DNA of 24,000 nucleotides from Candidatus Kaiserbacteria bacterium (GCA_016217935.1 JACRFJ010000001.1:1-24000); one strand, 5' to 3'; positions 1 through 18,326 are shown, counted from the first letter of the stretch. Program-made: numbers and translations. The notes: generated from the letters alone by a model not told the origin.

Positions 1-3000
1 GACGATGCGACCGTGAGCGTCCAGAAAGGCGAGGTCGTCGCAATGCCGAAATATCCTTTCAGGTTGTCGAACCGTGCGCGTTCGCTCTGCGCGGCGTAGA
101 ATCGCAAACCAACTTGGGACGCAGACGTGTTGTTGATATCGAGATAGCTGACTCCACCGTTTGAAACTGCCTGCGTACCATTGGCGAAAAGTCCTGTGTT
201 GTTGATGTATACCTTCATCGCTGGTGCCGAGATCGTTGTACCGGTGAGCAGTGTCGAAGATGCGTACGGGAATTGCGATGCAACAGTCGTTGACGTCGCG
301 ACGAGGTAATTGACCGTGGGCGAAGTCGACGCGGCAAGCACGCTGGTACTTCCATCGCTGTAGATCCAGCCCTGCCCGAAAGAAGCGGCACCAGTGCCGC
401 CACGATTGATCGCAAGCGTCGATGACGCACTCCACGTACCTGAATTGACGACTGCAATTCCTGTCCAGCCCGAAGAGTCTTGGCCGGTGCCGCCCTGCGT
501 CGTGCCAAGTGTTCCCGATATATTTCCAAGCGCGATGCAGTTGCTGGCGATAGCAAAGCAGCCCGCAGACAAGCTGACGCCACGTGAAAATGTCGAGGTC
601 GCAGTCCCCGTGAGATTGAGCGCCGTTGTCGTGATCCCACCGGTAAATGTCGAGGTCGATGTGTTGGTGACCGAGAGATTGGTGACCGACGACGTCCCGA
701 TTGTCGCATCTCCATCGTTGCCGATCGAAAATACAGTCGTTCCGGTCGAGGACGCGAGCGTGAGGAGATTTGCCGTCTGCGTCGAGAACCCTTGGAGCTT
801 GAGCGTCGGGATCGTGGTTGACCCTGAAGCGCTTTGAATGAAAACAGGTTGATTAGATTCAAATCGGTCGAGCGTCGAATTCCATGAGAGCAGCGCATTC
901 GGGACCGTGATGCCGCGGTAAAAAATGATCGACTGATCCTCTGTATCCGCAGAGACGTTGTCCGAATTGATTGTAAAAGTACTTGCAGTCGTGCCTGCGA
1001 TTGTCGAAGACGCAGCCGCAATATTGTTTGCATTCAAAGTACCAACGTACGCATTGCGCCAATAGAACGATGCTGAGCCGAGATCGTACGTTGCATTCTG
1101 GGAAGGTACGAGATGCGAGGTAATGCCGGAATTTGCGGAGAGCGAATCGACACTAAGTCGCGAAGTATAAAAGTTTGTTGTTGTCGCATTCGTACCGACA
1201 AAGTTGGTGGTGAAAAGATTTGAAGATGTGGCATTGGTAAAGACTGATGGGCCAGACACATAGAAGTTGGTCGACGTCGCATTCGTCGTGGTGGCATTGG
1301 TTGCCGTCAAACCGGTTGCGGTGATTGCCGTGGCGACGAGATTCGTAATCGTCGCAGCCGTCGCAGTGAGCGTATCGATGATGCCGGTTGTGAAATGTGT
1401 GAGCGTGGAAAAGAGAGTCGTTGAAGTTGCGCCGATGGAGAAGAGGTTCGTCGAACTCGCGGTTGTCGCAAAGAAGTTCGTTGTCGTCGCGTTTGTCCCC
1501 GTCGCGTTGAGCCATGTGAGATTTGTCGTCGAAGCGGTCGCGAGCGATGCGTTCCCGACATAGAGATTGGTCGAGGTCGCGTTCGTACCCGTGGCACTCA
1601 GCCACGTGAGATTTGTTGTTGATGCAGTGAGGAGTGACGAGAGCCCAGAGACATAGAGACTGGTGGAGGTTGCATTGGTGGTCGTCGCGTTGGTCGCGGT
1701 GAGCCCCGTTATGTTGGCGACCGTTGCAGTGAGCGTATCGATGATGCCGCTCGTCAGTCGTGCGAGCGAGGCAAAAAGTGAAGTCGATGTCGCATTGGTT
1801 GCGACGAAGGTGGATGTGTATCCGTAGGTCGATGTGGCGTTTGTCGTCGAGGCATTCGTCGCGAAGAAATTCGTTGTCGTCGCGCTGGTTGACGTGAAAT
1901 CGGTAACCGTCGTGGTCGAAAGACCGGAGATACCACTTACGTTCAGTGTCGTCGCACTGATCGTTGAGTTTGTGATCGTTGCATCCGTAATATCCCCGTG
2001 CGTGAAGCGAGAATTCGAGATACCAACATCACGGAGCGTATCGATCCTCTGTGTAAGCACGATTTGATTCGCGAGCCCACCGGAGGCAGGTGGCGAGGAG
2101 ACACTGGTAATCGAGTAAATCTTGCTCGAGAGCTTGTTGTCAAGCTCCTGCAGACGTCCACTTAAGTATTCTTCGGTAATTCCGCCTGCGCTCGCGATTT
2201 GTGAGGGAGACGAGGGCTCGATGATTCGCTCAATGACGCGTTCAGTGACGGGATGTGTAACGATCGTTGTTGGAGTGGAGGCTGGCACGAGTGATGGACT
2301 CTTCGTTGCCAATGATTCTCGCTTATTTGCAGATGCATATGGAGCTACACGTACAGTGACTTCGGCATCGCCGTCAGCTGCAGTCGCGGCATTTGATCGC
2401 ACGAGGCTCGCTGGAAAAGCGATCGAGTATACGAACGAGTCAACGCGCGAATTAAATCCGCGTGCAAGAGACTCAAGTCCATGTGGAATCGATGCCGCGA
2501 GAAGTTGCAGCGTGCCAAGGGGATTCTCCGCCGCAAGAGCAACCTGAGTTTCTGCACGTGTCGCGAGATCACGTGTGTGTTCGAGGGGTCGGATAAAAGC
2601 AAGGGAGGAGTCACGTATCGACTCAAGCGCGACACGTGCAGTATCCTGGTCAACGAGCGCATACGTTCCGAAGGTGAGCATGCATGCGAGCGTGAGCGCA
2701 ATGAGCCTATGCAAGAAATCAGTGATCGGAGTTACGACGTGGATCGGAATGTGTGGCGAGGAAACCACCGCTGCTCGAAGCGCTGCATCCGACGATCCAG
2801 CAGAGAGTGTTGCGGCACGAGCCATTTTCTGTATCGTCTCCGCTGCAAGTGCACTTGCGGGTCTCGCTGCGATCGCGTGCTCAAGATGACGCACGCTTTT
2901 TTCGACCGTATTGACGACAGGTTCTATGTAGGATTGCTCATTCGACGTATGCGAGATGCCCCGAGGAGGGTATCGCCCCTCGGATGAATGCATCCGATGG

Positions 3001-3251
3001 TATTCGCGGAGTCGATCTTCCGTGAGGTTCTGGCGGCGTTTGGCCTTCTCGAACCCCTGAAGCGCAAGAAAAGATCGGAAAGATTCTTCTTCTGCATACC
3101 AATTTCTGCCGAGGCGTCGACCCTTCACCTTTCCGTGACGACACAGAAGTGCAACGTAGTCACGGGTAAAGCCGAAAATATTTGATGCGTCATAAGCCGA
3201 TATGTAACGTCTCCCGTCAAAGTAGATCTCGTCCTTGAAGTTGTCCGTCAT
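1..3251 (-). CDS. Giant single-pass membrane protein (3'-partial): N-terminal HTH_17/excisionase-like module, one TM helix, Thr/Asn/Ala-rich tail-fibre-like repeat ectodomain
   Basis: Hand translation of the minus frame (codon first bases at coordinates = 2 mod 3) is open from ATG 3251-3249 to coordinate 1. In-frame TAA (3293-3291) and TAG (3278-3276) lie just upstream. N-terminus: MTDNFKDEIYFDGRRYISAYDASNIFGFTRDYVALLCRHGKVKGRRLGRNWYAEEESF. TM: LIALTLACMLTFGTYALV (about 2652-2705). Downstream repeats include TNATSTNLYVSG, TTNLTWLSATGTNAT and GIIDTLTATxANIT. Near the window edge: LVPSQNATYDLGSASFYWRNAYV, INRGGTGAASF, SERARFDNLKGYFGIATTSP. It is absent from the ORF track because no stop codon lies in the window. 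Confidence 0.8.
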   Translation of the reverse strand, partial: MTDNFKDEIYFDGRRYISAYDASNIFGFTRDYVALLCRHGKVKGRRLGRNWYAEEESFRSFLALQGFEKAKRRQNLTEDRLREYHRMHSSEGRYPPRGISHTSNEQSYIEPVVNTVEKSVRHLEHAIAARPASALAAETIQKMARAATLSAGSSDAALRAAVVSSPHIPIHVVTPITDFLHRLIALTLACMLTFGTYALVDQDTARVALESIRDSSLAFIRPLEHTRDLATRAETQVALAAENPLGTLQLLAASIPHGLESLARGFNSRVDSFVYSIAFPASLVRSNAATAADGDAEVTVRVAPYASANKRESLATKSPSLVPASTPTTIVTHPVTERVIERIIEPSSPSQIASAGGITEEYLSGRLQELDNKLSSKIYSITSVSSPPASGGLANQIVLTQRIDTLRDVGISNSRFTHGDITDATITNSTISATTLNVSGISGLSTTTVTDFTSTSATTTNFFATNASTTNATSTYGYTSTFVATNATSTSLFASLARLTSGIIDTLTATVANITGLTATNATTTNATSTSLYVSGLSSLLTASTTNLTWLSATGTNATSTNLYVGNASLATASTTNLTWLNATGTNATTTNFFATTASSTNLFSIGATSTTLFSTLTHFTTGIIDTLTATAATITNLVATAITATGLTATNATTTNATSTNFYVSGPSVFTNATSSNLFTTNFVGTNATTTNFYTSRLSVDSLSANSGITSHLVPSQNATYDLGSASFYWRNAYVGTLNANNIAAASSTIAGTTASTFTINSDNVSADTEDQSIIFYRGITVPNALLSWNSTLDRFESNQPVFIQSASGSTTIPTLKLQGFSTQTANLLTLASSTGTTVFSIGNDGDATIGTSSVTNLSVTNTSTSTFTGGITTTALNLTGTATSTFSRGVSLSAGCFAIASNCIALGNISGTLGTTQGGTGQDSSGWTGIAVVNSGTWSASSTLAINRGGTGAASFGQGWIYSDGSTSVLAASTSPTVNYLVATSTTVASQFPYASSTLLTGTTISAPAMKVYINNTGLFANGTQAVSNGGVSYLDINNTSASQVGLRFYAAQSERARFDNLKGYFGIATTSPFWTLTVAS
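1200..2000 (-). repeat. In-frame intragenic coding repeats of the giant surface protein (about 27-aa units and a 363-nt / 121-aa duplication)
   Basis: An exact 24-nt repeat gcagtgagcgtatcgatgatgccg occurs at 1363-1386 and 1726-1749, an offset of 363 nt (divisible by 3). Both copies encode GIIDTLTAT. The ccaYgtgagatttgt motif recurs at about 1511 and 1591 (about 81 nt apart) and encodes TTNLTWL. Confidence 0.8.
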
Positions 3252-3517
3252 GATTTTTTCGGAGATCCGATTTAACTATGATTTTACTAGTTATTTCGGC
3301 TATTGGACGCATAAAGGACGCGCTCATGTGTGGATAAAAGTAAAACGTATGAATCCCGACTCACAGATCATTCTTTTTTGTCTTTTACGCTATTTCTGCT
3401 CGAGGGAACATGCGCACGGCTCACAATCTGGATCCTTAAGCACAACCGCAATCGAGGTGGAACTGATCTCGGCCTTCCGACGTACGTATTTCCTCATCGA
3501 TTTGCGTGAATGGAGTT

Positions 3518-3550
3518 CATATAAAGCGAAAACGACTCCTCGAGTCGTTT
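3518..3550 (-). terminator. Intrinsic terminator after the 3606..4550 gene
   Basis: Minus strand reads AAACGACTC-GAG-GAGTCGTTT (9-bp perfect stem, 3530-3550), followed by TCGCTTTATAT. It lies 56 nt downstream of the stop at 3606. Confidence 0.6.
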
Positions 3551-3605
3551 CAAATCTTAATCATAGCTTTGTCCTATGAAAACGTTGCCAATACAGAGCT
3601 CGAAT

Positions 3606-4550
3606 CTATCGATCGTACTGCAATTCAATTGAGATCACTGCCTCAAGGATTTCGCCGATGCGATCGAGAGCTTCGGAGGCAGACGCGGTGAGTGAGCGTA
3701 CTGCAGTCGATCGAGTTTTGAGTGCTGCGTACGTGGAGCTATCTTTTAGCGTCAGAATGCCGTATGAGAGTACCAGGATGATGGTAAACGCAGCTGTCCC
3801 TTTCAGAGCCAAGGACATAGTCTTTCGGGATCTCCCGCTTCTTTTTCCCGAATCACTTCTCCAGGAAATCTTCGTCTGTGAAACATGCGTCGTAGAAGGC
3901 ATGACACGTATCGGAATTGAGTGACTCGGTTCTTTTTTTTCCTCTTCGATCCTGCCTCCACCCATTACTTCGTTGCTCCTGACTAAGTGAGGAATCAAAT
4001 CATGAGCTTCAGAATGGTACGTAAAGTGCATTTTCTTTGAATCAATGTTTTTCGATTCCAGATTTGCACGTTGCTCTTGAGACGGTATAGAGGCTTGTAG
4101 ACCCACTGACTCAACTTGCACTTTTGCAAGAAGAGTATCTTTTTCCCTTTTGTGCGCCAAAAGTCCTTCGCGCTCTACGTACCACCGGTTTCCGACTTGG
4201 CGCGAAAGTATCTTTCCTGCGCGAGCAAGCTGCCCAACGTAATCCTGGTTGTACGCCGTGATTTTCGACGCTCGGGACGCCGAGATATAGTCTTTTCCGT
4301 CGAAATTCACTATTGCCTCAGGATCCTGCGCAAAACTCCTCCCCGCAGGCTGGGGTCTGGCTATAGCACTATTTTGCTTGTATCTAAGGAGAGAATCCAT
4401 TGAAACGTACCACAGGCCGCCAACGCGCTGCGCGTCGATCACACCCGATCTTCCAAGCTGGCCTATGTAGTCTTGAGCATAGCCGCTTTCATCGGCCGCT
4501 TTTTTTGAGGATACGTATGTCTTACCCGATATGAACAGCTCATCCGCCAT
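3606..4550 (-). CDS. Single-pass membrane protein with two tandem HTH_17/excisionase-like modules (paralog of the N-terminus of the 1..3251 ORF)
   Basis: 314-aa ORF. Two modules: LFISGKTYVSSKKAADESGYAQDYIGQLGRSGVIDAQRVGGLWYV and VNFDGKDYISASRASKITAYNQDYVGQLARAGKILSRQVGNRWYV. Basic stretch KRSGRSRK, then TM LALKGTAAFTIILVLSYGILTL and a short C-terminal tail. Confidence 0.8.
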   Translation of the reverse strand: MADELFISGKTYVSSKKAADESGYAQDYIGQLGRSGVIDAQRVGGLWYVSMDSLLRYKQNSAIARPQPAGRSFAQDPEAIVNFDGKDYISASRASKITAYNQDYVGQLARAGKILSRQVGNRWYVEREGLLAHKREKDTLLAKVQVESVGLQASIPSQEQRANLESKNIDSKKMHFTYHSEAHDLIPHLVRSNEVMGGGRIEEEKKEPSHSIPIRVMPSTTHVSQTKISWRSDSGKRSGRSRKTMSLALKGTAAFTIILVLSYGILTLKDSSTYAALKTRSTAVRSLTASASEALDRIGEILEAVISIELQYDR

Positions 4551-4607: not shown

Positions 4608-6041
4608 TTAGCGAATGAGGGACCTCAATATTTCTCGCAGCATTTCGGGATCCCCTGCCCCTTTGAGTTCCTTCATACTCTGCCCGAGGAGAAATTCGAG
4701 TGCCGAATCCTTTCCTGCCTTATAGTCCTCTGCGACTTGCCCGTGTCTGTTGAGGATGCGCAAAGCGACCTCGCGGAGCTTCTCAATATTTGTTTCCTGA
4801 AGAAGACCTTCAGCCTTCGCATAGACTTCAGGATCCTGATCATGGGATACAAGAGCAGTCAGAATGTCTTTCGCAGACCGAGAAGAAACTGTTTTCATTT
4901 GAATCATTTCAATCAGCTTTGCAAAATGAGTCGCAGAAATCGGTATTTTATCCAGAGATTTCGTATCTCGCTCTTCGATGTCTCGGATGATTTTGACCAA
5001 GTCGTTTGCAACGTAGTTAATTGCGGTGTTGTACTCGACGGCAGCGATCTTAGTTACTTCATCGAAGTAGTCTCCAAAACGTCTATCCCTCACAAGAAGC
5101 TCGATGTCGTCGGACTGCAGAGCAAGATCCCGATATCGCTTTCTTCTATCTTCCGGTAACTCTGAAAGAGCGTCTCTCAAAATATCAGGATGAAATTCTG
5201 GAAGTTCTGAAAGCTTTAGGAACGGGAGGTCAGGATCAGGAAAATATCGATAGTCCGCACTTCCCTCTTTTATACGCTGACTGAATGTTGCCTGCTTTGA
5301 CTCATCCCATCCCCGTGTTTCTTGCACGACTGTTCCACCGCTCTCAATAAGCTTTTTTTGACGGTCCAGCTCGTACGCAACTGCCCTTTCCATTGCGCGA
5401 AATGAATTGAGATTCTTGATCTCGACTTTCGTACCATATACGCCATTTTGACCGAGGGATACATTCGCCTCGACGCGCATCTCCCCGCGCTCCATGTTTG
5501 CTTCACTTGCACCCAGATATCGCAGCAGGAGCTGCAGGTCACGCGCAAATCTCCCTGCGTGCTCGGCACTTGAGATGACGGGTTCTGTTACAAGTTCCAT
5601 GAGTGGGACACCTGCTCGATTGTAGTCGACGAGTGTTGCCCCGGTCTTTTCATCGTGAATCGAGCTTGCCGTGTCTTCCTCGAGATGTACGCGTGTAATC
5701 TGGACGCCACTCAGTTCCCCTCCCTTCACGAGTGGGAATTCGTATTGCGAGAGCTGGTATCCTTTCGGCAAATCAGGGTAAAAGTAATTCTTGCGATCGA
5801 ATTCGGTGTAATCGGCAAGTTCACCCTTGAGCGCTAATCCAACTCGTAAGACGTGTTTTACGGCCTCGGCATTGATGACTGGCAAGGTCCCAGGATGCGC
5901 CAGGCATACGGGACAAATATGCGTGTTTGCTTCAGCAGTAAACGGATCATTTGCAGAGTCGCAAAACATCTTTGTGCGAGTCTTCAGCTCCGCATGAATC
6001 TCAAGTCCTATTGTGGGCTCATATACGGCCATGTACGCCAT
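4608..6041 (-). CDS. gatB: Aspartyl/glutamyl-tRNA(Asn/Gln) amidotransferase subunit B
   Basis: 477 aa. The N-terminus YEPTIGLEIHAELKTRTKMFCDS...HICPVCLAHPGTLPV is canonical GatB, followed by the RVHLEEDT and RVEANVS motifs and a C-terminal YqeY-like tail. The start could be M1 (6041) or M4 (6032). Confidence 0.95.
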   Translation of the reverse strand: MAYMAVYEPTIGLEIHAELKTRTKMFCDSANDPFTAEANTHICPVCLAHPGTLPVINAEAVKHVLRVGLALKGELADYTEFDRKNYFYPDLPKGYQLSQYEFPLVKGGELSGVQITRVHLEEDTASSIHDEKTGATLVDYNRAGVPLMELVTEPVISSAEHAGRFARDLQLLLRYLGASEANMERGEMRVEANVSLGQNGVYGTKVEIKNLNSFRAMERAVAYELDRQKKLIESGGTVVQETRGWDESKQATFSQRIKEGSADYRYFPDPDLPFLKLSELPEFHPDILRDALSELPEDRRKRYRDLALQSDDIELLVRDRRFGDYFDEVTKIAAVEYNTAINYVANDLVKIIRDIEERDTKSLDKIPISATHFAKLIEMIQMKTVSSRSAKDILTALVSHDQDPEVYAKAEGLLQETNIEKLREVALRILNRHGQVAEDYKAGKDSALEFLLGQSMKELKGAGDPEMLREILRSLIR

Positions 6042-6266: not shown

Positions 6267-8798
6267 CTATTCGACGGCAATTCTCCATTGACCTGAAGCG
6301 AGCAACTGCTCAGCTTTTTTGTACTTCATTTCCCGTACTTCGGACCCGTTGGTGATCTTTACTTTGTCATTTCTTCCAAAATGAGTCACCTTCGAGATCT
6401 TATTGACAATTGTTATTGATCGTGTCGCATCATGAATTGTACGCACCTGAGGCGCGTGCACCTCACTTTGACCAAGATTTTTGATTGCTGCCGCCACTTG
6501 AGCGCGATATGTCTCTTCCATGTTTTGAAAGAGCTGTAAACCTTCTTTTTTATATTCAACCAATGGATCGCGTTGTCCATACGCGCGCAGATTCACAGAA
6601 CTGCGTAAATATTCCATTGCTTCGAGATGCTCGACCCAGAGATAATCTACTCCCTGCAAAAGTAGCCGACGAACAGTTGAGTAGAACGAGTCGCCAAGTT
6701 TTTCTTTTTTCTCTTGCAACATAATTTCGAAACCCGCATCATCGATCGCAATCTGGCTGAGCTCATCATCGATATCGCTTTGAGAACCAGTGAGGAGCGA
6801 GCGCCGGCGCGCATAGATACTCTGTCGCTGCACATTGAGTACATCGTCATACGCGAGCACATGTTTTCGCGCGTCGAAATTGATCTCTTCGATTCTCGTC
6901 TGTGCTTTCTCGAGTGAGCGTGTGATCATCGGATTATAGATCGGTTCGTCCTCCGGGATCTTGAACGTACCCATCACTCGCTTGATAACATCAGAAGCAA
7001 ATATGCGCATGAGCGAATCTTCGAGCGAGACAAAAAACTGTGTCTCCCCCGGATCCCCCTGTCGTCCTGATCGACCGCGTAGCTGATTATCAATGCGCCT
7101 CGCTTCATGTCGTTCGGTCCCGAGAACAAAAAGTCCACCGAGGCCTTTGACCTCTTCGTACATCTGATCACTCCCCGGATTGCCGCCAAGCTTGATGTCG
7201 ACGCCGCGTCCAGCCATGTTGGTCGCGATCGTCACCGCAGAGCGTCGGCCAGCTTGCGCGATGACCTCTCCTTCGCGCTCGTGGTTCTTTGCATTCAGAA
7301 CCTCGTGTGGTATTCCCGCTTGCTTGAAATGTATCGAGAGAAGTTCGTTTTTCTCAACAGAAACAGTGCCTACAAGGACCGGTTGACCTTTCTCGTGCAG
7401 TTCCTTGACCTTCTTCGCCATTGCGCGCATTTTTCCGCTTTCGCTCTGGAAGATGAGGTCGTCATGATCGAGGCGTTTAGATGCTTTATTCGTTGGCACA
7501 CTCACCGTATTCAGACCATATACTTTATAGAACTCTTCTGAAGAGGTTGCTGCGGTTCCCGTCATTCCGGCAAGCTTTTCATAAAGTCGGAAGTAGTTCT
7601 GGAACGTGATTGAGGCAAAGGTACGTGACTCTTGCTGAATTGATACACCCTCCTTGGCTTCGATTGCCTGATGCAATCCTTCACTCCATCGCCGTCCCGG
7701 TTGTAACCTTCCCGTAAATTCATCAACAATCACGACCTGGCCGTCGCGAACGACGTATGCCTTATCTCGCTCGAATAGTGCCTTGGCTCGTACCGCAGTT
7801 TCGAGATGGTGGACCATTTTGATACCCGCATCGGTGTACATGTTCTCTATACCAAGAATCTTCTCCGCCTTCTCTATCCCTTGATCGGTGAGCGCAATCT
7901 GCTTGTGTTTCTCGTCTACGGTATAGTCTTCTTCAGGGACGAGGTTGCGTGCGATTGTTGAAAAGCGTTCGTAGAGAGACTCAGCGTCACTTACGGGAGC
8001 TGAGATGATCAGGGGTGTTCGCGCTTCGTCGATGAGGATCGAGTCTATTTCGTCGACAATCGCGAAATGGTATCCGCCTTTTTCCTGCAGTCGCTGTCGC
8101 AGATTCTGAGGTTCATATTCGAGGTTATCGCGCAGATAATCAAAACCGAATTCGTTGTTCGTACCATATGTAATGTCCGCTGCGTATGCCTCACGCCGCG
8201 AACACGGCCGCAAATAATCGTGCATCACCTTGAAGCTGCCCACACTGTCGCGCTCCGCATCTTCTTCAGCCCTCGACTCCGATGGCACATGGCTCGGATC
8301 GTAGATAAATGAACTCTCGTGATTGATGACACCAACTGAGATTCCGAGTGCGTTATAGACCTGTCCCATCCACACCGCATCACGCCGTGAGAGATAGTCG
8401 TTTACGGTGACCACATGCACCCCTTTTCCAGTGAGCGCGTTGAGGTATGCCGGGAGCGTTGCGACAAGGGTTTTTCCCTCCCCGGTGCGCATCTCAGCAA
8501 TGCCACCCTGATGCAAAACCATGCCGCCGATGATTTGTACGTCAAAATGTCGCTGACCGAGCGTGCGGCGTGCCGCTTCGCGCGCAAGCGCAAATGCCTC
8601 AGGTGCCAGCTCGTCGAGCGCTACTCCTGCCGCATGTTTCTCCTTCAAAGCAGCTGTCTTCGCTTTCAGAGCCTGATCGGAGAGTGCCTGAGTGTCGGTC
8701 TCAAGCGCACTCACGAGTGCGACCATTGGCTCGGCACGCTTCAGCGCCGTGGCATTTTCATCCCCAAACAAACGTTTTAGGAAGGACATCGTGGCCAT
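6267..8798 (-). CDS. secA: Preprotein translocase ATPase SecA
   Basis: 843 aa. Contains FLKRLFGD, HFDVQIIGGMVLHQGGIAEMRTGEGKTLVATLPAYLNAL (Walker A), VTVNDYLSRRD, DEIDSILIDEARTPLIIS, GMTGTA, ATNMAGRGVDIKLGGN and LRGRSGRQGDPG. The start may be M1 (8798) or M4 (8789). Confidence 0.97.
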   Translation of the reverse strand: MATMSFLKRLFGDENATALKRAEPMVALVSALETDTQALSDQALKAKTAALKEKHAAGVALDELAPEAFALAREAARRTLGQRHFDVQIIGGMVLHQGGIAEMRTGEGKTLVATLPAYLNALTGKGVHVVTVNDYLSRRDAVWMGQVYNALGISVGVINHESSFIYDPSHVPSESRAEEDAERDSVGSFKVMHDYLRPCSRREAYAADITYGTNNEFGFDYLRDNLEYEPQNLRQRLQEKGGYHFAIVDEIDSILIDEARTPLIISAPVSDAESLYERFSTIARNLVPEEDYTVDEKHKQIALTDQGIEKAEKILGIENMYTDAGIKMVHHLETAVRAKALFERDKAYVVRDGQVVIVDEFTGRLQPGRRWSEGLHQAIEAKEGVSIQQESRTFASITFQNYFRLYEKLAGMTGTAATSSEEFYKVYGLNTVSVPTNKASKRLDHDDLIFQSESGKMRAMAKKVKELHEKGQPVLVGTVSVEKNELLSIHFKQAGIPHEVLNAKNHEREGEVIAQAGRRSAVTIATNMAGRGVDIKLGGNPGSDQMYEEVKGLGGLFVLGTERHEARRIDNQLRGRSGRQGDPGETQFFVSLEDSLMRIFASDVIKRVMGTFKIPEDEPIYNPMITRSLEKAQTRIEEINFDARKHVLAYDDVLNVQRQSIYARRRSLLTGSQSDIDDELSQIAIDDAGFEIMLQEKKEKLGDSFYSTVRRLLLQGVDYLWVEHLEAMEYLRSSVNLRAYGQRDPLVEYKKEGLQLFQNMEETYRAQVAAAIKNLGQSEVHAPQVRTIHDATRSITIVNKISKVTHFGRNDKVKITNGSEVREMKYKKAEQLLASGQWRIAVE

Positions 8799-9452: not shown

Positions 9453-11714
9453 TCATTGAACCTGCGCGCTTCCTGATCGAATTTGACCAATCAGTTCGTC
9501 AGCCTGCGTCTTCACCTCAGGGTGTGCACGCTTCGCAGCTTCGAGCGCTTCTATCGCACGCGCCTTGTCACCTGATTGATAGTAGAGCGCTGCGAGGGTG
9601 AAGTACGGCTGCACATCTTGCGGATTCGTCGCAACGAGCGCTTGCCAGATTTTTGCTACTTTGTCGTAGCGTTTCCTGTCGATGTACGCTGCAAGAGTTC
9701 TCGGGTCTGCCGCTTCTCCCGTTGCAATATACGGTTCAAGCAATGCATCTGATTTTGTAAAATCGCCCGCACGAATCAAAACCGCTGCATAGTATATTGT
9801 CGGTTCCAAGAATTGCGGAGCAAGTTCATGCGCTTCTTTAAACGCATTCAATGCGCTGGCGAGATCACCGCGCCGCAGCGCGTTTTGGCCTATCTCAAAG
9901 AATATTCGCTGCTTCCGGGGAGAAAGCTTTAACGCTTGAGTAAAGGCGTCGTTTGCAGCAGCATTGTTTCCATACGCTTCGTACACGACACCGAGAAAGA
10001 GCGGGAATCGTGCGTCGAGCGGAGAAGCCTTCGCTTGGAGTTGCAGCTCGCTCGTTGCTACGTCATAGAATTGCTGCTTTGTGGTATTGGGAATCGAAAG
10101 TGATGCTGCTTGCGTGGCGGCTTGTGCGAGTTGTTCGCGCGCCTCTTGCGAACCATAGGTGCCATAGCTGATCGATCTTTTAAACGCCGCGAGCGTTTTC
10201 GACGCATCTCCCTGTGTGTTGAGAGCGGCGATAATTGCGCGATTGGCAACAAGCGCTTGCGCGTTCACTGTCCATGCAACACCCCACAAGAGTATTGCCG
10301 CCCCAACAGTTATGTATGGCAGAGCACTCACTGGAAACAAGAACCTCTCGCCGAAAAGTATCGACGCTTTCGAATGCTTCGACGTACGGAATATTACGTA
10401 CCCGAGTATCGTGCCGAAAAGTATATAGCTCGTGACGTTGTCGAACACAAAGAAATTGTGGCAGAAGTAGGCGGCAAGCAAGCCGGTGAGTAGAGACCGT
10501 TCGGGAATGGAGAAGGCGTGAACTTCGTTTACAGAACGGTGCCACAGGAGCCAGAGCGTCGCAAGAAAAATTGAGAGATAGGAGAGGAGACCAAGGAATC
10601 CGCCGGCCACAAGCCAATCAAATACGATATTGTGAACGCGATCAAACCACGGCTCCTGCGCATACATGCGTGGATCGTAGTACTTGTCGAAAACGATCGC
10701 GTAGTTTTCTTGCCCCCAGCCAAGAATGGGGCGCTCCTTGACCCCCTCCCATGCGATCGACCAGTTGATGAATCGAGCCTTGACCGTCGGGTCCGAGGTT
10801 GAGATTGTCGCAAGTCGCTCGAGGAATCCAATTTTCTTGACCCACGCTTGGTCGCGTGCCGTCCAAAATGCTCCTGCGAGAAATACGATCACAACAACAG
10901 TTGCAAATGCAAATCGCCATACCACGCGTGAGTTTCTCGCGAGAATCACGAGAATCAGCGCAGAGAGTAGGGCGCCACCGAAGAGTCCGATCATAGTTCC
11001 TCGAGTGCCGGTAAAGAGGAGCGCGAGCGTATCGATTACAATGATTGATCCGTATGCAAGCGAGGGAGCGAGCCGCGAGCCGCGAGCACGTTCCATCCAC
11101 GACTGTGACCACATGATCGCAGCGATAAAAATGTGGAAGAGCATGTATGCCGCAAGGTAGATCGGATTGCCGAAGGTTGCATCGATGCGCGCCGAGAGGC
11201 CCGCGGCACCACCTTGCCCGAGCGTAGAGAGCCCGACCACCTGAAGAAAACCGTAGAGCGCAAGATATACAGAGACACCGAGTGAAACCCAGAGGAGCCA
11301 CCGCCACAGTTTCTCGGTATTCATCATCGATGCTGCGATGACCACGTATACAAACAGGTGTGCGAGCGTCACCCATCCGTCCATGCGCTCATAGTTACTC
11401 CAGAAACTTTTCATTGGGTACGCACCAAATAAATCGGCGAGCGCGATAACGAAAAGGAAGACTGCGAGCGCGAGGAGTGCCCACGAGCGTCGAGGCCGGT
11501 AATCGGACCGCACGAATGAAAGGGCGAGATACGCAGCTGTAATGATCTCGACGATAAGACGGAACGCAAAGTTCTTTCCTGTTATAAAGGGAAAAAAGAG
11601 AGATTCTGATACAAATATTGCAACAAACGGGAGAAGAAAAATGCCGCCAAGCACTACGTACCGTAGAGTCTTTTCAAGCACCATGGGAACTATGCTAGCA
11701 CTGGTCGTTGTCAC
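9453..11714 (-). CDS. Polytopic Wzy_C (O-antigen ligase/polymerase-like) membrane protein with C-terminal TPR repeats
   Basis: 753 aa with about 12 hydrophobic spans. Wzy_C-type loop motif FDRVHNIVFDWLVAGGFLGLL. The C-terminal roughly 230 aa form repeated TPR-like helices (AAANDAFTQALKLSPR, ASALNAFKEAHELAPQ, DKARAIEALEAAKRAHPE). The track start at 11714 is GTG; ATG at 11684 (MVLEKTL) is an alternative. Confidence 0.85.
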   Translation of the reverse strand: MTTTSASIVPMVLEKTLRYVVLGGIFLLPFVAIFVSESLFFPFITGKNFAFRLIVEIITAAYLALSFVRSDYRPRRSWALLALAVFLFVIALADLFGAYPMKSFWSNYERMDGWVTLAHLFVYVVIAASMMNTEKLWRWLLWVSLGVSVYLALYGFLQVVGLSTLGQGGAAGLSARIDATFGNPIYLAAYMLFHIFIAAIMWSQSWMERARGSRLAPSLAYGSIIVIDTLALLFTGTRGTMIGLFGGALLSALILVILARNSRVVWRFAFATVVVIVFLAGAFWTARDQAWVKKIGFLERLATISTSDPTVKARFINWSIAWEGVKERPILGWGQENYAIVFDKYYDPRMYAQEPWFDRVHNIVFDWLVAGGFLGLLSYLSIFLATLWLLWHRSVNEVHAFSIPERSLLTGLLAAYFCHNFFVFDNVTSYILFGTILGYVIFRTSKHSKASILFGERFLFPVSALPYITVGAAILLWGVAWTVNAQALVANRAIIAALNTQGDASKTLAAFKRSISYGTYGSQEAREQLAQAATQAASLSIPNTTKQQFYDVATSELQLQAKASPLDARFPLFLGVVYEAYGNNAAANDAFTQALKLSPRKQRIFFEIGQNALRRGDLASALNAFKEAHELAPQFLEPTIYYAAVLIRAGDFTKSDALLEPYIATGEAADPRTLAAYIDRKRYDKVAKIWQALVATNPQDVQPYFTLAALYYQSGDKARAIEALEAAKRAHPEVKTQADELIGQIRSGSAQVQ

Positions 11715-14033: not shown

Positions 14034-14477
14034 CTATGCAAATAGAAGAAATTTTCGTGCAAAGAAATTCCAAGAGAAAACGACGACGACACTCGCGAGT
14101 TTTGAAACGAGGTAATAAAAACCAAAGAGCGACGTGAAGAGCCAGAGCATGATTTCGTTGATACCGAGACCGATAGCACCGATAAGACAAAAGATGAGAA
14201 ATTCAGCCGAGGGACTTCTCACCGCACGATGCTCGAATACCCAGATTATACTCAGAACGTATACCGAGGTTAGGCCCACCAGAAACGAAATCGCGCCAGA
14301 GATGAGATATGGAACGTTGAATACACTCGTGAGCAGCCACAAAAGTCCCGTATCGAGGATGAGCGCAGCCCCCGAAGCGACGAAGTAGCGGATGAACTCA
14401 TGGAAGGTGTTCGAACCGAGAGCCTCGACAGAGGGCGTTGTTGCAGCTTCAGGTGAGGTGACGATGTCGGCGCTCAT
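14034..14477 (-). CDS. GtrA-family membrane protein (polyprenyl-phosphate-sugar translocation family)
   Basis: The track ORF 14034..14705 is trimmed to ATG 14477 (MSADIVTSPE...). Four hydrophobic helices with GtrA-like FIRYFVASGAALILDTGLLWLL ... VVVFSWNFFARKFLLF. It overlaps the upstream gene end (14449) by 29 nt. The start is uncertain (alternative ATG at 14498). Confidence 0.8.
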   Translation of the reverse strand: MSADIVTSPEAATTPSVEALGSNTFHEFIRYFVASGAALILDTGLLWLLTSVFNVPYLISGAISFLVGLTSVYVLSIIWVFEHRAVRSPSAEFLIFCLIGAIGLGINEIMLWLFTSLFGFYYLVSKLASVVVVFSWNFFARKFLLFA

Positions 14478-15918
14478 ATATGTACGAGAGCGTAGCATGT
14501 GCGCCGAGGGCAGCAAGGATAAGGAGGTACGGCTCCGAGGGAATGCGGTAGCGCGCGATCGATACAGGACCGGTGAGAGCCGCAAAATATGCAATGAGAA
14601 GGGCAAACAGTACCACGCGATAATCACGCCGCCCCCTCCACGTCGCCACAAGTGCAAAGAAAACCATAAGTGTCCAAAAGCCCATCTCAAGCCCAAGTGG
14701 TGCAACTACTTTGATTGCCCTCGTTGCCTCTCTCCAATCACCCGCACCAAGCTGCTTCAACGCATCAATGAGAACAAGCGCGGTAGGTGCGAAATACCCC
14801 TTGTTGTCGCGGACCTGCACAACCACCTGCTCGTATGCTGCGACCGAACTCCCAAGGAAATATGGCACCGTATTCACCGCGTGAAAGTATGCATAACGGA
14901 GGGGATCTTGCATGATGAGTTGCGCCGCGAGTTTACCCTCATAATTTTGAATGTCTTCTCCTTTGGGAGTCATCTCGTTCAGCTCTATCCAAATCTCAGA
15001 TGAGACTTTCTTGTATGCGGGATCTTCGCGATATCGGCTCGCGAGAATCGCGGGCACCGACCGATCTGTGTCCATTTCTTTCCACGCAAGAAAATCACGT
15101 GCATTGTAGTAGAGCAGATTCGATGCACCGACATGCGCGATTTCATAGGATCCGAATTTATGGTGATACCAGTAGAGCCAGGGTGCGAGGACGAAGATTG
15201 CGACGACAACGTACATGGCCACCGGAAGAGCATACTGTTTGAAATTGAATCGGAAATGTTTGAACTCAGCTGCAATAATCGCGAAAGCAATCATCGGCAC
15301 AAGGAATTGCGCAATCGGGCGAATCAAGGTGAGGAGACCAAGCGTGAGCCCGACCATGCCCCACCTGAGAAAACTACGTCTTGTTTCATAAAAGAGAGCG
15401 ACATAGATGACGATGACGAGAAGTGACGCGAATAATCCGTCTGAGAGAATCGTCGTATTCGCAAGCACAACGTTCGGATCAACCCCGAAGAGAAGTGCGG
15501 GGAGCGCCGACCAAACAGAGTTCAAGAACCTCCGCGTCATCGCATAGATGAGCGCAACGGCAACGAGTGCGAGCGCGATCTGGATGAGAACTACGAGCAC
15601 AAAGCTCGCGTGCTGATTCCCCATCGCAATTTTTCCCACAATAGCGAGGAAAAAAGAGTACCCCGGCGCCCAGTGTCTTTCTGGCTCACCTTGATTTCGC
15701 TCAAACGTGTGCCGCATGAGGAGCGAGTTCGCAAGCGTGGCGTACGTCTCTGAATCTCCTTTGAGGAGCGGGTACTGCGCTGCCTCTCGATTATTCGATG
15801 CGAGATGTGCTACGTACCCGTAGGACCCAATATGTGCGAGCAAAACAATCGCGAGGACTGCGACAAGATATGGACGTGCGGTAACGAATGAACGAATATT
15901 CACATTATTATGCGACAT
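14449..15918 (-). CDS. GT-C fold glycosyltransferase, family 39 / ArnT-PMT-like (polyprenyl-phosphate-sugar dependent)
   Basis: About 489 aa from ATG 15918 (MSHNNVNIRSF). It is polytopic, with a first-loop acidic motif LLKGDSETYATLANSLL (DExY-like) and many TM spans typical of PMT_2/ArnT. The ATG is embedded in the last codons of neuB (ATGTCGCATAA, 11-nt overlap). The track start 15972 would overlap neuB by 65 nt. Confidence 0.85.
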   Translation of the reverse strand: MSHNNVNIRSFVTARPYLVAVLAIVLLAHIGSYGYVAHLASNNREAAQYPLLKGDSETYATLANSLLMRHTFERNQGEPERHWAPGYSFFLAIVGKIAMGNQHASFVLVVLIQIALALVAVALIYAMTRRFLNSVWSALPALLFGVDPNVVLANTTILSDGLFASLLVIVIYVALFYETRRSFLRWGMVGLTLGLLTLIRPIAQFLVPMIAFAIIAAEFKHFRFNFKQYALPVAMYVVVAIFVLAPWLYWYHHKFGSYEIAHVGASNLLYYNARDFLAWKEMDTDRSVPAILASRYREDPAYKKVSSEIWIELNEMTPKGEDIQNYEGKLAAQLIMQDPLRYAYFHAVNTVPYFLGSSVAAYEQVVVQVRDNKGYFAPTALVLIDALKQLGAGDWREATRAIKVVAPLGLEMGFWTLMVFFALVATWRGRRDYRVVLFALLIAYFAALTGPVSIARYRIPSEPYLLILAALGAHATLSYIYERRHRHLT

Positions 15919-16933
15919 CGGTTTCGAGAATGAGTTCGTCTTCACCAATGTCTCGCACGGCACGTTTACCAACGATCACGCCGATCTTCTCAGGGCCGAG
16001 TCCCGTTCCCGGACGCTTGAGTGCAAGCATGGCCCTCGTAATGGTGTCGCCTTTTTTAATATCGCTATCAGCCATAATGCTCTGTCGTGCCCACTCTCGC
16101 GCCTTATCGAGACTATCCGCGCGCGCGTCAAATGAATCCTTGATCGAAGCCTCGATATCGCGCATTTGCTGCACCATAAGAATGAGTTCTTCCGGTGTGG
16201 TTGAGACAGGGCAATCAAAGGATCGCTCGTCTGTCTTATCAAATGATTGATGCTTCTCGATGAGAGCCGCCCCGAGTGCAACCGCGGCAAGTGGGATGTG
16301 CCAGCCGACCGTGTGATCAGAATAGCCAATGGGGTAGTCGAACATCTTTTTGTAACGAGCGATCATCGGAAGATCGTTCTTTTCTGGCTCAGTTGGATAC
16401 ACCGTATTACAGTGCAGTATGACGATCTCTGTGCAGCCACCGCGCTCCAGCGCCTTCACTGAGGCACGCATCTCTTCTTCTGTCTTATGGAGACCAAACG
16501 ATGCAATCACGGGCTTGCCGCGTGAACCGATATTTTCCAGAAATTCGAGGTTGAGCGACTCTCCTGAACCGATCTTGAAAAATGGAACGTTGAGTTTCTT
16601 GTCGAGAAACTCGAGGTCAACTTCGGTATGTGCTGTGATGAAGCATTCTATCCCCTTCGACCGAGCATACTCATACAGCTCGGTAAGTTCATCGTGTGAG
16701 AGCTCTTTGTATTTCAAACGATCGTACCAATATGGAGATACTTTTCTTGATACAAGTGCTTCGGTCGTCTGTGCCTGGAACTTGACCGCATCGCATTTCG
16801 CTTCGACTGCAGCGTCGACCTGCTTTTTCGCAAGCTCGAGCTGCCCCCAATTCGTAAGCCCTCCTTCAGAGACGATATACACAGGCTCACCGTCACCGAC
16901 GAGTCGACCATTGATTGAGATTTTCTTCGACAT
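15908..16933 (-). CDS. neuB: N-acetylneuraminate (nonulosonic acid) synthase, NeuB family, with C-terminal SAF domain
   Basis: 341 aa: VYIVSEGGLTNWGQLELAKKQVDAAVEAKCDAVKFQ, PFFKIGSGE, ILHCNTVYPT, GYSDHTVG, and the SAF-like tail GDTITRAMLALKRPGTGL. Confidence 0.9.
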   Translation of the reverse strand: MSKKISINGRLVGDGEPVYIVSEGGLTNWGQLELAKKQVDAAVEAKCDAVKFQAQTTEALVSRKVSPYWYDRLKYKELSHDELTELYEYARSKGIECFITAHTEVDLEFLDKKLNVPFFKIGSGESLNLEFLENIGSRGKPVIASFGLHKTEEEMRASVKALERGGCTEIVILHCNTVYPTEPEKNDLPMIARYKKMFDYPIGYSDHTVGWHIPLAAVALGAALIEKHQSFDKTDERSFDCPVSTTPEELILMVQQMRDIEASIKDSFDARADSLDKAREWARQSIMADSDIKKGDTITRAMLALKRPGTGLGPEKIGVIVGKRAVRDIGEDELILETDVA

Positions 16934-16986
16934 GCGGAAAGCGTATCAATTTCGAATCAAAATGCTACCCGAAGCAGACCGTATAA

Positions 16987-18147: not shown

Positions 18148-18148
18148 A

Positions 18149-18284: not shown

Positions 18285-18326
18285 CATAGCGAGAGAACAC
18301 TATCAAAAAGGGAGGCAATTGCAATC

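What the first reader, a model, noticed from the sequence alone, without database searches (positions are those of the whole stretch)
1..3251. ORF of more than 1080 codons missed by the ORF track: HTH-like head, one TM helix, and a giant sequon-rich fibre
The minus frame (codon starts = 2 mod 3) is open from ATG 3251 to coordinate 1. The track instead lists about ten shadow ORFs over this region. My hand translation gives a cytoplasmic excisionase/MerR-type HTH-like module, a basic linker, and one hydrophobic helix (about 2652-2705). This is followed by roughly 800 or more residues dominated by Thr, Asn, Ala and Ser. N-x-S/T tripeptides (NAT, NLT, NAS, NIT, NST, NVS) recur throughout the repeats. 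The visible end carries motifs I associate with phage tail-fibre or endosialidase-chaperone-type fibres (ERxRFD..G.FGIATTSP, NRGGTG, YDLGS..F.WRNAYV). I do not recognise a DNA-binding-type head fused through one TM helix to such an ectodomain as a described architecture. It lies 6 kb from a large glycan locus and is an obvious candidate glycoprotein.
Basis: partly seen in the sequence, partly recalled or inferred. Interest (0 to 1): 0.7.

Follow-up and report, generated by a model that had tools for sequence, protein, structure and literature searches.

The report
Membrane-anchored tail-fibre-like protein with HTH head
This is the first 1,083 residues of a real gene, cut off by the contig end, from a Kaiserbacteria (Patescibacteria) genome; it joins a cytoplasmic DNA-binding-type domain, through one membrane helix, to a long phage-tail-fibre-like surface fibre, and the family is conserved at one chromosomal locus across the clade and was not found described in the literature searched.

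Summary
The minus-strand frame from ATG 3251 to base 3 is open for 1,083 codons. It equals GenBank [quoted passage not shown]. The ORF lister skipped it only because it runs off the window.

The architecture is: an HTH_17/excisionase-type winged helix (aa 8-65, pLDDT 93-97), a variable linker, one strongly conserved TM helix (aa 182-201), a helical stalk and coiled-coil neck, a 5-residue-periodic T-N-[A/L/F]-x-x shaft (aa 440-700), and tail-fibre-type modules.

Complete relatives (933 to 5,533 aa) end in Peptidase_S74 chaperone plus Ig-like domains or in other tips. One contains a T4 gp34 trimerisation domain.

The family has 3,757 clusters at 50% identity. In 34 of 44 species genomes it follows SecA, GatB and a small 2xHTH-TM paralogue, as here. 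In about 70% of those genomes the contig breaks inside the gene.

The best reading is a probably trimeric cell-surface recognition fibre. It resembles the Bdellovibrio MAT fibres but has a different anchor, whose cytoplasmic HTH heads may bind DNA.

The "sequons" are mostly a by-product of the pentapeptide repeat, so N-glycosylation is not supported. O-glycosylation remains possible. The head's function is unknown.

The parts
1..3251 (-). Partial CDS (codons occupy 3..3251), 1,083 aa, with the C-terminus lost at the contig end. It equals GenBank HY970_00005 (partial).
3057..3230 (-). Cytoplasmic HTH_17 / excisionase-type winged-helix head (aa 8-65). Topology is beta-beta-alpha-alpha-beta-beta.
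   Evidence: HTH_17 scores 14.6-15.4 bits on this copy, below the gathering score of 27. It matches 28 of 29 family heads, best E 2.7e-10. AF2 pLDDT is 93-97. Foldseek finds Pukovnik Xis 4j2n (TM 0.69, rmsd 1.7 A), BldC and TraN. A PDB profile search hits TraN/AM32 at E 2e-3.
2982..3089 (-). Long helix continuing from the head (aa 55-90), with conserved R80, E83 and Y84. The head plus this helix has net charge +5.
2745..2981 (-). Variable, low-confidence linker (aa 91-169). Mean identity to family members is 18%.
2649..2708 (-). Single TM helix (aa 182-201, RLIALTLACMLTFGTYALVD). The family consensus is EFxHKLxALxLAxMLTFGTYAxVD. Mean identity is 50%, unusually conserved for a plain anchor.
2256..2648 (-). 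Juxtamembrane helical stalk and S/T/P linker (aa 202-332). AF2 confidence is low.
2097..2255 (-). Conserved neck (aa 333-385): the 'PVxERVIERI' motif, then an amphipathic helix GGITEEYLSGRLQELDNKLSSKIY (pLDDT 76-84). The neck is shared with head-less, signal-peptide-bearing relatives.
1152..1934 (-). Shaft with 5-residue periodicity (aa 440-700). The unit is T-N-[A/L/F]-x-x. It is the source of most N-x-S/T tripeptides.
   Evidence: DNA repeats are spaced at 15 nt. Asn autocorrelation is 0.51, 0.38 and 0.29 at lags 5, 10 and 15.
612..1148 (-). Conserved fibre module (aa 702-880) beginning YDLGSxSFYWRNAYVGTLNANNI. It is 55-62% identical in P0070, P0068, P0095, P0092 and P0002.
   Evidence: AF2 pLDDT is 70-83 for about aa 790-860, all beta and coil.
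237..599 (-). Modules 'GxxLxxGCFAIxxNCI' (Cys898, Cys905) and 'GGTG...GQGWIYS...STSPTVNYLVATST..FPYASST'. These recur in many relatives. In several relatives the site after FPYASSTxLTVSG holds an intein. There is none here.
15..86 (-). ERARFDNLKGYFGIATTSPFWTL (aa 1056-1079). This is one copy of the beta-helix capping-loop motif (V-G-G/N-pi-x-x-P-x-x-x-L) of S74/MAT fibres. Relatives carry up to 22 copies.
   Evidence: motif definition from PMC10769870.
3606..4550 (-). Upstream partner or paralogue, 314 aa: two tandem copies of the same head (aa 3-54 and 81-130), a basic linker, one TM helix and a roughly 50-aa tail. It is conserved directly upstream of the giant gene in 42 of 44 genomes.
3529..3551 (-). 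Terminator-like hairpin after the small gene. It suggests the giant gene has its own promoter in the 354-nt spacer.
   Evidence: This is a consensus match only.

Best explanation
The ORF is the N-terminal about 1,083 residues of a chromosomal core gene of a Kaiserbacteria-type patescibacterium. It encodes a type-II (N-in, C-out) membrane-anchored fibre.

Shown:
- An excisionase/MerR-type HTH_17 domain sits at the N-terminus.
- After a variable linker, one highly conserved TM helix follows.
- Next come a helical stalk with a coiled-coil neck, a pentapeptide-periodic Thr/Asn-rich shaft, and modules shared with phage-tail-fibre-like proteins.
- Full-length family members finish with interchangeable tips: an S74 intramolecular chaperone plus an Ig-like domain, or two other C-terminal types.

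Inferred:
- The ectodomain is exported through Sec using the TM helix as a signal-anchor.
- It trimerises, as S74/gp34-type fibres do, and projects from the cell as a recognition or adhesion fibre for a host cell or surface glycan.
- Its distal part evolves fast.
- Trimerisation would bring three HTH heads together under the membrane (six in two-head variants), with further heads on the co-encoded small 2xHTH-TM protein.
- The heads most likely bind DNA cooperatively, as Xis, BldC and TraN do.
- This would couple the fibre to the nucleoid or to gene regulation.

The head's role is the least certain step.
For: Reality and identity of the gene.

Head: HTH_17 matches 28 of 29 heads. AF2 pLDDT is 93-97. 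Foldseek finds Xis, BldC, TraN and RdfS. A PDB profile search finds TraN.

TM and stalk: the TM and neck are strongly conserved, at 50% and 48% identity against 18% for the linker.

The fibre part is extracytoplasmic: head-less relatives begin with a signal peptide directly before the same neck and fibre, and end in S74 plus an Ig-like domain.

Whole architecture in one chain at Pfam's curated cut-offs: P0064 has HTH_17 at 28.4 bits, Peptidase_S74 at 43.5 and Bact_surface_Ig-like at 29.8. P0051 shows the same three domains, though its HTH_17 score (20.7 bits) is below the cut-off. P0056 has Gp34_trimer at 67.7 bits.

Mosaic distal modules and three C-terminal types.

Capping-loop motif and the S74/non-S74 split mirror the Bdellovibrio MAT fibres.

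Core-genome status: there are 47 loci, almost all in Patescibacteria. Among the 44 with a long core match, the small head gene lies upstream in 42, GatB in 38, SecA in 35, and all three in 34.

Head and fibre are coupled: all 14 additional head-bearing proteins sampled are of the fibre type.

Family size: 3,757 clusters at E<=1e-3, 672 at <=1e-10 and 89 at <=1e-30.
Against: - The C-terminal tip of this gene is missing and could not be recovered.
- No trimer model could be run. The monomer AF2 model of aa 701-1083 has mean pLDDT 59, and its fold matches are not significant (E>0.2).
- This copy of the head scores below Pfam's gathering score (14.6-15.4 against 27 bits).
- The positive-inside rule is uninformative. 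Within 15 aa, the N-side has only the conserved H-K/R, and the C-side has 1.6 K+R. No dedicated topology predictor was available.
- There is no expression, localisation, DNA-binding or adhesion data.
- No similarity to deposited phage genomes was found for aa 701-1083, so 'tail-fibre-like' rests on domains found in relatives.
Confidence: 0.6

Rival explanations
1. Contact-sensing receptor or membrane-tethered transcription factor. The fibre is the sensor, and binding or pulling on it changes the oligomeric state of the HTH heads or triggers proteolytic release of them. The heads then regulate genes for the attached lifestyle. This would be analogous to ToxR/CadC, or to Notch and MyRF. It is compatible with the adhesin reading but makes signalling the primary function.
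For: - The head is coupled specifically to this fibre architecture.
- The head and TM are the most conserved parts.
- The TM contains helix-weakening G, T and Y residues in an invariant LTFGTY motif.
- Tandem-head variants and a co-encoded 2xHTH-TM partner exist.
- HTH_17 relatives are DNA binders.
- MyRF shows that an S74-type trimeriser can be combined with a membrane-bound transcription factor.
Against: - No protease, cleavage site or target operator has been identified.
- S74 lies on the far extracellular end, so its self-cleavage cannot release the head.
- An 11-nt direct repeat upstream of the gene (3269-3289) has no visible counterpart upstream of the orthologue in L001.
Confidence: 0.15
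2. Structural envelope component. This would be a membrane-anchored, probably O-glycosylated surface-layer or cell-wall-spanning fibre needed for envelope architecture rather than for recognising a partner. The head would serve as a cytoplasmic anchoring or positioning domain, in the way RodZ's HTH binds MreB (from my own knowledge).
For: - There is a single conserved locus next to housekeeping genes in nearly all genomes of the clade.
- The composition is very Thr/Ser-rich.
- Wzy_C-TPR, PMT_2 and GtrA genes and a nonulosonic-acid pathway lie in the same window. Wzy_C-TPR is also syntenic in the P0013 locus.
Against: - Interchangeable distal tips, lectin-type neighbours (Laminin_G_3, SPRY) in orthologous loci, and S74/gp34 modules point to ligand recognition.
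- No SLH or other known S-layer domain was found.
Confidence: 0.15
3. One reading: an N-glycoprotein, in which the recurring N-x-S/T tripeptides are glycosylation sequons served by the nearby glycan locus.
For: - There are 30 N-x-S/T sites, a modest excess over composition (29 against 19.8 +/- 3.6 in the ectodomain).
- Glycan-related genes lie at 9.4-23.9 kb in the window.
Against: - The sites sit in register with a 5-residue structural repeat, T-N-A-T-S.
- There is only one D/E-x-N-x-S/T site.
- No STT3/PglB-type enzyme was seen among the window's ORFs.
- The enzymes that are present (Wzy_C-TPR, PMT_2) would suggest O-linked rather than N-linked glycosylation, if they act on proteins at all.
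- The glycan locus is separated from the gene by SecA and GatB, in a clade-wide conserved order.
Confidence: 0.08
4. A prophage or phage-derived tail-fibre gene that happens to lie at the contig end.
For: - Relatives carry tail-fibre-type motifs, S74 and gp34 domains.
- IS200-type transposase genes lie near the orthologous loci.
Against: - Synteny with SecA and GatB is conserved in 34 of 44 species genomes.
- The protein has an N-terminal TM anchor and a cytoplasmic head.
- No phage structural genes are in the window.
- There was no PHROG hit and no tblastn hit in 50,697 phage records.
Confidence: 0.02

Closest known systems
Bdellovibrio bacteriovorus MAT (mosaic adhesive trimer) fibres, S74 and non-S74 groups (PMC10769870)
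   Same: - These are cell-surface fibres of a bacterium that lives on other bacteria, not of a phage.
- They are long beta-rich shafts with the V-G-G/N-pi-x-x-P-x-x-x-L capping-loop motif. In this family the motif reads GNVGIGTTSPxxxL.
- The family splits into members ending in an autoproteolytic S74 chaperone and members with other tips.
- Distal domains are mosaic and swappable.
   Different: - MAT proteins have a signal peptide followed by a conserved beta-rich N-terminal domain of about 130 aa, presumed to bind a surface element.
- This family instead has a cytoplasmic HTH_17 head, a TM anchor and a helical stalk.
- It belongs to a different phylum, presumed to have a single-membrane envelope.
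- It adds a pentapeptide-periodic shaft.
- It occupies a single syntenic locus rather than 21 paralogues.
- No significant fold match was obtained here.
Phage tail fibres and tailspikes with a C-terminal intramolecular chaperone (Peptidase_S74: K1F endosialidase, T5 pb1) and the T4 gp34 trimerisation domain
   Same: Complete relatives carry Peptidase_S74 with the S-D-x-x-x-K motif, and one carries Gp34_trimer. The ERxRxD...GxxGIGTTSP repeats are also shared.
   Different: - The protein is not in a phage and is anchored in the cell membrane.
- No S74 is present in the visible 1,083 aa.
- No sequence match to deposited phages was found.
Excisionase/MerR-like HTH_17 DNA binders (mycobacteriophage Pukovnik Xis, Streptomyces BldC, pIP501 TraN, RdfS)
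   Same: The fold and sequence profile of the head match. TraN has two tandem domains, like the small neighbour and several family members. From my own knowledge, BldC and Xis bind DNA as head-to-tail arrays.
   Different: Those proteins are small and soluble. Here the domain is tethered to the membrane and fused to a fibre of more than 1,000 aa. DNA binding is untested.
Single-pass membrane-tethered regulators and HTH proteins: ToxR/CadC, RodZ, and eukaryotic MyRF
   Same: The layout is the same: an N-terminal cytoplasmic DNA-binding-type domain, one TM helix and an extracytoplasmic domain. MyRF also combines a DNA-binding domain with an S74-type trimerising chaperone.
   Different: - The HTH class differs: OmpR-type in ToxR/CadC, XRE-type in RodZ, Ndt80-type in MyRF.
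- In MyRF the S74 domain is on the same side of the membrane as the DNA-binding domain and releases it. Here it is at the distal extracellular end.
- None of these has a tail-fibre ectodomain.

Membership tests
Pfam HTH_17 (PF12728) | Sequence match at or above the gathering score (27 bits) | tested here: inconclusive
   This copy scores 14.6-15.4 bits, E 0.02-0.04. 28 of 29 family heads match at E<=0.1, best 2.7e-10. Relative P0064 scores 28.4 bits and the neighbour gene 27.1 bits.
Pfam HTH_17 (PF12728) | Winged-helix fold of the excisionase/MerR type | tested here: met
   AF2 gives pLDDT 93-97 and a beta-beta-alpha-alpha-beta-beta topology. Foldseek finds Xis 4j2n (TM 0.69, rmsd 1.7 A, probability 1.0) and BldC (TM 0.70-0.75).
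Pfam HTH_17 (PF12728) | DNA binding | not testable with these tools
   This needs EMSA or DAP-seq with aa 1-90.
Bdellovibrio MAT superfamily | Signal peptide followed by the conserved beta-rich N-terminal domain of about 130 aa | tested here: not met
   The N-terminus is an HTH head, a linker, a TM helix at aa 182-201 and a helical stalk.
Bdellovibrio MAT superfamily | Beta-helix capping-loop motif V-G-G/N-pi-x-x-P-x-x-x-L | tested here: met
   FGIATTSPFWTL lies at aa 1068-1079. Relatives have 1-22 GIGTTxP copies.
Bdellovibrio MAT superfamily | Homotrimeric fibre | not testable with these tools
   Only monomer AF2 was available (pLDDT 59). Trimerisation is inferred from S74 and Gp34_trimer in relatives.
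Peptidase_S74-terminated fibres | C-terminal S74 domain with the S-D-x-x-x-K motif | tested here: inconclusive
   S74 is absent from the visible 1,083 aa, but the C-terminus is missing. It is present in relatives P0064, P0051, P0020 and others. The positional orthologue P0013 has a different, non-S74 end.
Pentapeptide-repeat proteins (PF00805-type beta-helix) | Five-residue periodicity with a central hydrophobic residue preceded by D/N | tested here: met
   Autocorrelation peaks at lags 5, 10 and 15 for Asn and for hydrophobic residues. The unit is T-N-[A/L/F]-x-x.
Pentapeptide-repeat proteins (PF00805-type beta-helix) | Profile match to the Pfam family | tested here: not met
   No Pfam hit at E<=1 on the whole protein, or at E<=10 on aa 484-1083.
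ToxR/CadC-type membrane-bound regulators | Cytoplasmic N-terminal DNA-binding domain, single TM helix and external domain | tested here: met
   The layout is shown. N-in/C-out is inferred from head-less, signal-peptide relatives. The charge bias is uninformative.
ToxR/CadC-type membrane-bound regulators | OmpR-type winged helix (Trans_reg_C) | tested here: not met
   Only HTH_17 and related families are hit.
Bacterial N-glycoproteins (PglB type) | Multiple D/E-x-N-x-S/T sequons and an STT3/PglB enzyme | tested here: not met
   There is one extended sequon, at aa 1038. No STT3 was found among the window's ORFs. The rest of the genome was not available.

The most novel reading that the evidence does not exclude
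The family is a bacterial 'outside-in' contact sensor. A trimeric, phage-fibre-like adhesin would convert engagement with a host cell into a change in a membrane-tethered array of excisionase-type HTH heads. That change could be clustering, DNA capture or proteolytic release. It would switch the epibiont's gene expression or tether its nucleoid at the contact site. This would be a prokaryotic counterpart of Notch- or MyRF-type signalling, conserved across a large patescibacterial clade.
Probability: 0.12. Interest if true: 0.9.

Novelty: new variant of a known kind. Interest (0 to 1): 0.6.

Why it matters
Patescibacteria make up a large share of bacterial diversity. Those cultivated so far live attached to other microbes, yet outside Saccharibacteria almost nothing is known about how they recognise partners.

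This gene marks a clade-wide family of fibres built from phage-tail-fibre parts, with swappable tips. The family has thousands of clusters and one fixed chromosomal locus. That makes it a prime candidate host-range determinant.

The fibre is hard-wired through the membrane to a DNA-binding-type domain. That raises a testable idea: attachment and gene control, or nucleoid organisation, may be physically coupled in these tiny cells.

There is also a practical point. Contigs break inside this gene in about 70% of the genomes examined, so the most informative part of the protein is systematically missing from MAGs.

Tried and rejected
- Pfam, PHROGs and NCBIfam on the whole protein gave no hits.
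- An exact-sequence look-up of P0001's contig found nothing on record.
- An exact 50-mer from the window's left edge was absent from GTDB genomes and JGI metagenomes, so the C-terminus could not be recovered.
- AF2 of aa 1-440 was confident only for the head and partly for the neck.
- AF2 of aa 701-1083 as a monomer had mean pLDDT 59, and Foldseek gave only non-significant matches. I use the flavour of that list (phage fibres, Bdellovibrio fibres) only as a lead.
- tblastn against 50,697 phage records found no match, so the prophage reading is rejected together with the synteny evidence.
- The sigma-70 promoter scan of the spacer found nothing.
- The positive-inside charge test was uninformative.
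- Seven literature searches or look-ups found no description of the family, including a search for PF26696, a newer Pfam family precomputed on several relatives but absent from this Pfam copy.
- The idea that the head is a generic N-terminal module on many kinds of patescibacterial surface proteins is rejected for now. All 14 extra head-bearing proteins inspected are of the fibre type.
- A first synteny script mis-assigned the small paralogue as the giant gene. It was corrected.

Full report
**Observation.** The minus-strand frame from ATG 3251 to base 3 is open for 1,083 codons. Shuffled sequence of the same composition gives open runs of 110 codons on average and 321 at most. P(no stop) is about 1e-18. 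The product is 100% identical to GenBank [quoted passage not shown], 1,084 aa, on a 39,630-bp contig. The locus tag marks the first gene of the contig. So the gene is real, it was already called, and it is truncated by a contig end. It could not be extended: the protein is not in the contig look-up, and a 50-mer from the window edge occurs in neither the GTDB genomes nor the JGI metagenomes.

**Anatomy of the visible 1,083 residues.** Whole-protein scans of Pfam, PHROGs and NCBIfam found nothing. Region by region:

- aa 8-65. The isolated N-terminus hits HTH_17 weakly, at 14.6-15.4 bits against a gathering score of 27. In an alignment of 29 heads from the family, 28 match HTH_17, with best E 2.7e-10. 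A profile of the heads finds the pIP501 DNA-binding protein TraN in the PDB at E 2e-3. AF2 with a 17-sequence alignment predicts a beta-beta-alpha-alpha-beta-beta fold continuing into a long helix to aa 90, at pLDDT 93-97. Foldseek matches mycobacteriophage Pukovnik Xis (TM 0.69, rmsd 1.7 A), BldC (TM 0.70-0.75), TraN and RdfS excisionase. The head is therefore an excisionase/MerR-type winged helix.
- aa 91-169 form a poorly conserved linker, at 18% identity.
- aa 182-201 form the only strongly hydrophobic segment (Kyte-Doolittle 1.74). The segment and its flank (EFxHKLxALxLAxMLTFGTYAxVD) are as conserved as the head, at 50% against 54%. That is unusual for a passive anchor.
- aa 202-332 form a helical stalk of low model confidence.
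- aa 333-385 form a conserved neck: PVxERVIERI, then the amphipathic helix GGITEEYLSGRLQELDNKLSSKIY, at pLDDT 76-84.
- aa 440-700 have a strict 5-residue period. DNA repeats are spaced at 15 nt. Asn autocorrelation is 0.51, 0.38 and 0.29 at lags 5, 10 and 15, and hydrophobic residues show the same pattern. The unit is T-N-[A/L/F]-x-x.
- aa 702-880 form a module that is 55-62% identical in at least five other family members.
- aa 885-1005 carry a Cys pair and GGTG/FPYASST modules that recur widely.
- aa 1056-1079 carry ERARFDNLKGYFGIATTSPFWTL.

**What the missing part probably looks like.** A phmmer search with aa 1-440 against 1.84 billion cluster representatives finds 3,757 proteins at E<=1e-3, 672 at <=1e-10 and 89 at <=1e-30. 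Lengths reach 5,533 aa. Full-length members continue with many GNVGIGTTSPxxxL repeats and end in one of three ways:

- Type A: an S-D-x-R-L-K S74 chaperone, then a helical segment and an Ig-like domain.
- Type B: a C-terminus ending ...GEVSMRLTGxRYDFSKWPNxRxDQD.
- Type C: a C-terminus ending ...TTTANxCDLxSFxAT.

Pfam confirms the combination within single chains. P0064 (1,300 aa) has HTH_17 at 28.4 bits, Peptidase_S74 at 43.5 and Bact_surface_Ig-like at 29.8, all above the curated cut-offs. P0051 has the same three domains, though its HTH_17 score (20.7 bits) is below the cut-off. P0056 has the T4 Gp34_trimer domain at 67.7 bits. Head-less relatives start with a signal peptide placed directly before the same neck and fibre. 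That is the best evidence available here that everything after the TM helix is outside the cell. The charge bias around the TM helix is uninformative.

**Genomic context.** The window is chromosomal. It carries GatB (4608-6041), SecA (6267-8798), a Wzy_C-TPR protein (9453-11714), GtrA, a PMT_2 glycosyltransferase and a nonulosonic-acid pathway with NeuB, a UDP-GlcNAc 2-epimerase and a cytidylyltransferase. Directly upstream of the giant gene lies a 314-aa protein with two copies of the same head (46% and 33% identity), a TM helix and a short tail. A terminator-like hairpin follows it.

The locus of P0013, a complete 1,600-aa type-B protein, has the same order: Wzy_C-TPR, SecA, GatB, a 310-aa HTH_17 protein, then the giant gene. 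A scan of one genome per GTDB species found 47 loci. Almost all are from Patescibacteria: Kaiserbacteria, Paceibacterota, Parcubacteria, Nomurabacteria, and MAGs labelled Saccharibacteria. One is a closed 859-kb Kaiserbacteria chromosome.

Of the 44 loci with a long core match, 42 have the small head gene upstream, 38 have GatB, 35 have SecA and 34 have all three. Complete genes span 933-2,375 aa. In 31 of the 44, the contig ends inside the gene. The truncation here is therefore typical, and it suggests repeats or strain-level variability in the distal fibre. Orthologous loci continue with lectin-type proteins (Laminin_G_3, SPRY/DUF7483).

This is a core, syntenic gene and not a prophage remnant. 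There was also no PHROG hit and no tblastn hit in 50,697 phage records.

**Mechanism.** The modular layout, its conservation and its synteny are shown. The rest is inferred.

- The TM helix acts as a signal-anchor, and the ectodomain is exported.
- The ectodomain trimerises. This is inferred from the S74 and gp34 modules and the coiled-coil neck.
- It projects as a recognition fibre whose tip varies.

The closest described system is the Bdellovibrio MAT family (PMC10769870). Those are predator-surface trimeric fibres with S74 and non-S74 members, mosaic tips, glycan binding and the same capping-loop motif. MAT fibres, however, use a signal peptide plus a beta-rich N-terminal domain. That defining feature is not met here, so I describe this as MAT-like in function and not as a member.

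The cytoplasmic head is coupled specifically to this fibre type. All 14 additional head-bearing proteins sampled share the TM, neck and fibre layout, and several have two heads. A trimer would bring three heads together, and the small partner would add more. Relatives of the domain bind DNA, some as arrays. I therefore favour DNA binding, either as a nucleoid tether or as a membrane-bound regulator, but this step is untested. A protein-anchoring role like RodZ's, or a signalling role like ToxR, MyRF or Notch, are live alternatives.

**Glycoprotein idea.** There are 30 N-x-S/T tripeptides, but the excess over composition is modest (29 against 19.8 +/- 3.6). They lie in register with the T-N-A-T-S structural unit. 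Only one bacterial extended sequon exists. No STT3/PglB-type enzyme was seen among the window's ORFs. The Wzy_C-TPR and PMT_2 genes would suggest O-linked modification of this Thr/Ser-rich protein, if they act on proteins at all. That remains speculation, and the conserved gene order weakens the argument from proximity.

**Novelty and verdict.** I found no paper describing an HTH_17-TM-tail-fibre/S74 protein or this patescibacterial family. Databases label members "hypothetical", "helix-turn-helix domain-containing" or "tail fiber domain-containing". I rate it a new variant of a known kind: cell-surface, phage-fibre-like adhesins with a new anchoring and coupling module. Interest is moderate to high. 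The observation itself is ordinary, because the edge-truncated ORF is already in GenBank. The architecture, its clade-wide conservation and the possible outside-in coupling are worth following up.

Noticed in passing
window 3606-4550 (-): A small 314-aa protein has two tandem copies of the giant protein's HTH head, a basic linker, one TM helix and a roughly 50-aa tail. It is conserved immediately upstream of the giant gene in 42 of 44 species genomes, so it is likely a functional partner.
   Followed up: partly
relatives P0050, P0085, P0070, P0011, P0004, P0019 (e.g. P0050 aa ~1177; P0085 aa ~993): Several orthologous fibre genes have inteins inserted in the extracellular fibre, starting C-[VL]-[TA]-[AG]-D-T-[RK]-L-R-R-R-R. 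In P0050 and P0011 the intein follows the FPYASSTALTVSG motif. Some carry an NYN nuclease domain (Pfam Intein_splicing and NYN). The window's copy has the FPYASST motif (aa 995-1001) but no intein. Inteins in a surface fibre are unusual.
   Followed up: partly
46 related loci L002-L045 and window 1: In 31 of 44 species genomes the contig ends inside this gene, as in this window. The distal fibre is systematically lost from MAGs, which suggests repeats or strain-level hypervariability.
   Followed up: partly
window 15908-23878 (-): This is a nonulosonic-acid (sialic-acid-like) sugar locus. It has NeuB (15908-16933), epimerases/dehydratases, a UDP-GlcNAc 2-epimerase (20121-21308), a CMP-sugar cytidylyltransferase (22032-22742), a glycerophosphotransferase-like gene (22739-23878) and a PAPS-reductase-like gene (18327-19007).
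   Followed up: no
window 9453-11714 (-): A Wzy_C (O-antigen ligase/polymerase-type) domain is fused to C-terminal TPR repeats. It is syntenic upstream of SecA in related genomes. In an organism presumed to have a single membrane, it could be a protein O-oligosaccharyltransferase or a polymerase. This is untested.
   Followed up: no
window 14034-14705 and 14449-15972 (-): The listed ORFs for the GtrA-like and PMT_2-like proteins overlap by 257 nt. The GtrA domain starts only at aa 106 of its ORF, so the true start of the GtrA gene is probably further downstream.
   Followed up: no
window 3269-3289: An 11-nt direct repeat (GATTTAACTAT x1.9; on the coding strand TAGTAAAATCA/TAGTTAAATC) lies 18-38 nt upstream of the giant gene's ATG. 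It may be a promoter or operator element. No similar repeat was seen upstream of the orthologue in L001.
   Followed up: partly
window 1-3000: The + strand has a strongly positive GC skew here (0.08-0.24), unlike the rest of the window. This is explained by the C-rich coding strand (C 30.5%, G 23.5%) of a Thr/Ser/Ala/Asn-rich protein, not by a replication feature.
   Followed up: yes
L001 6338-14276 and the P0013 locus: Downstream of the orthologous giant genes lie further large secreted-type proteins (Laminin_G_3 x2, SPRY/DUF7483 of 1,030 and >1,471 aa), IS200-type Y1 transposases and a PemK toxin. This suggests a surface-protein island that this window's contig end cuts off.
   Followed up: no
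precomputed Pfam on P0008, P0010, P0015, P0018, P0019, P0021: A recent Pfam family, PF26696, is assigned to several close relatives. It is absent from the Pfam copy available here, so its name and extent could not be checked. It may already define part of this family.
   Followed up: partly
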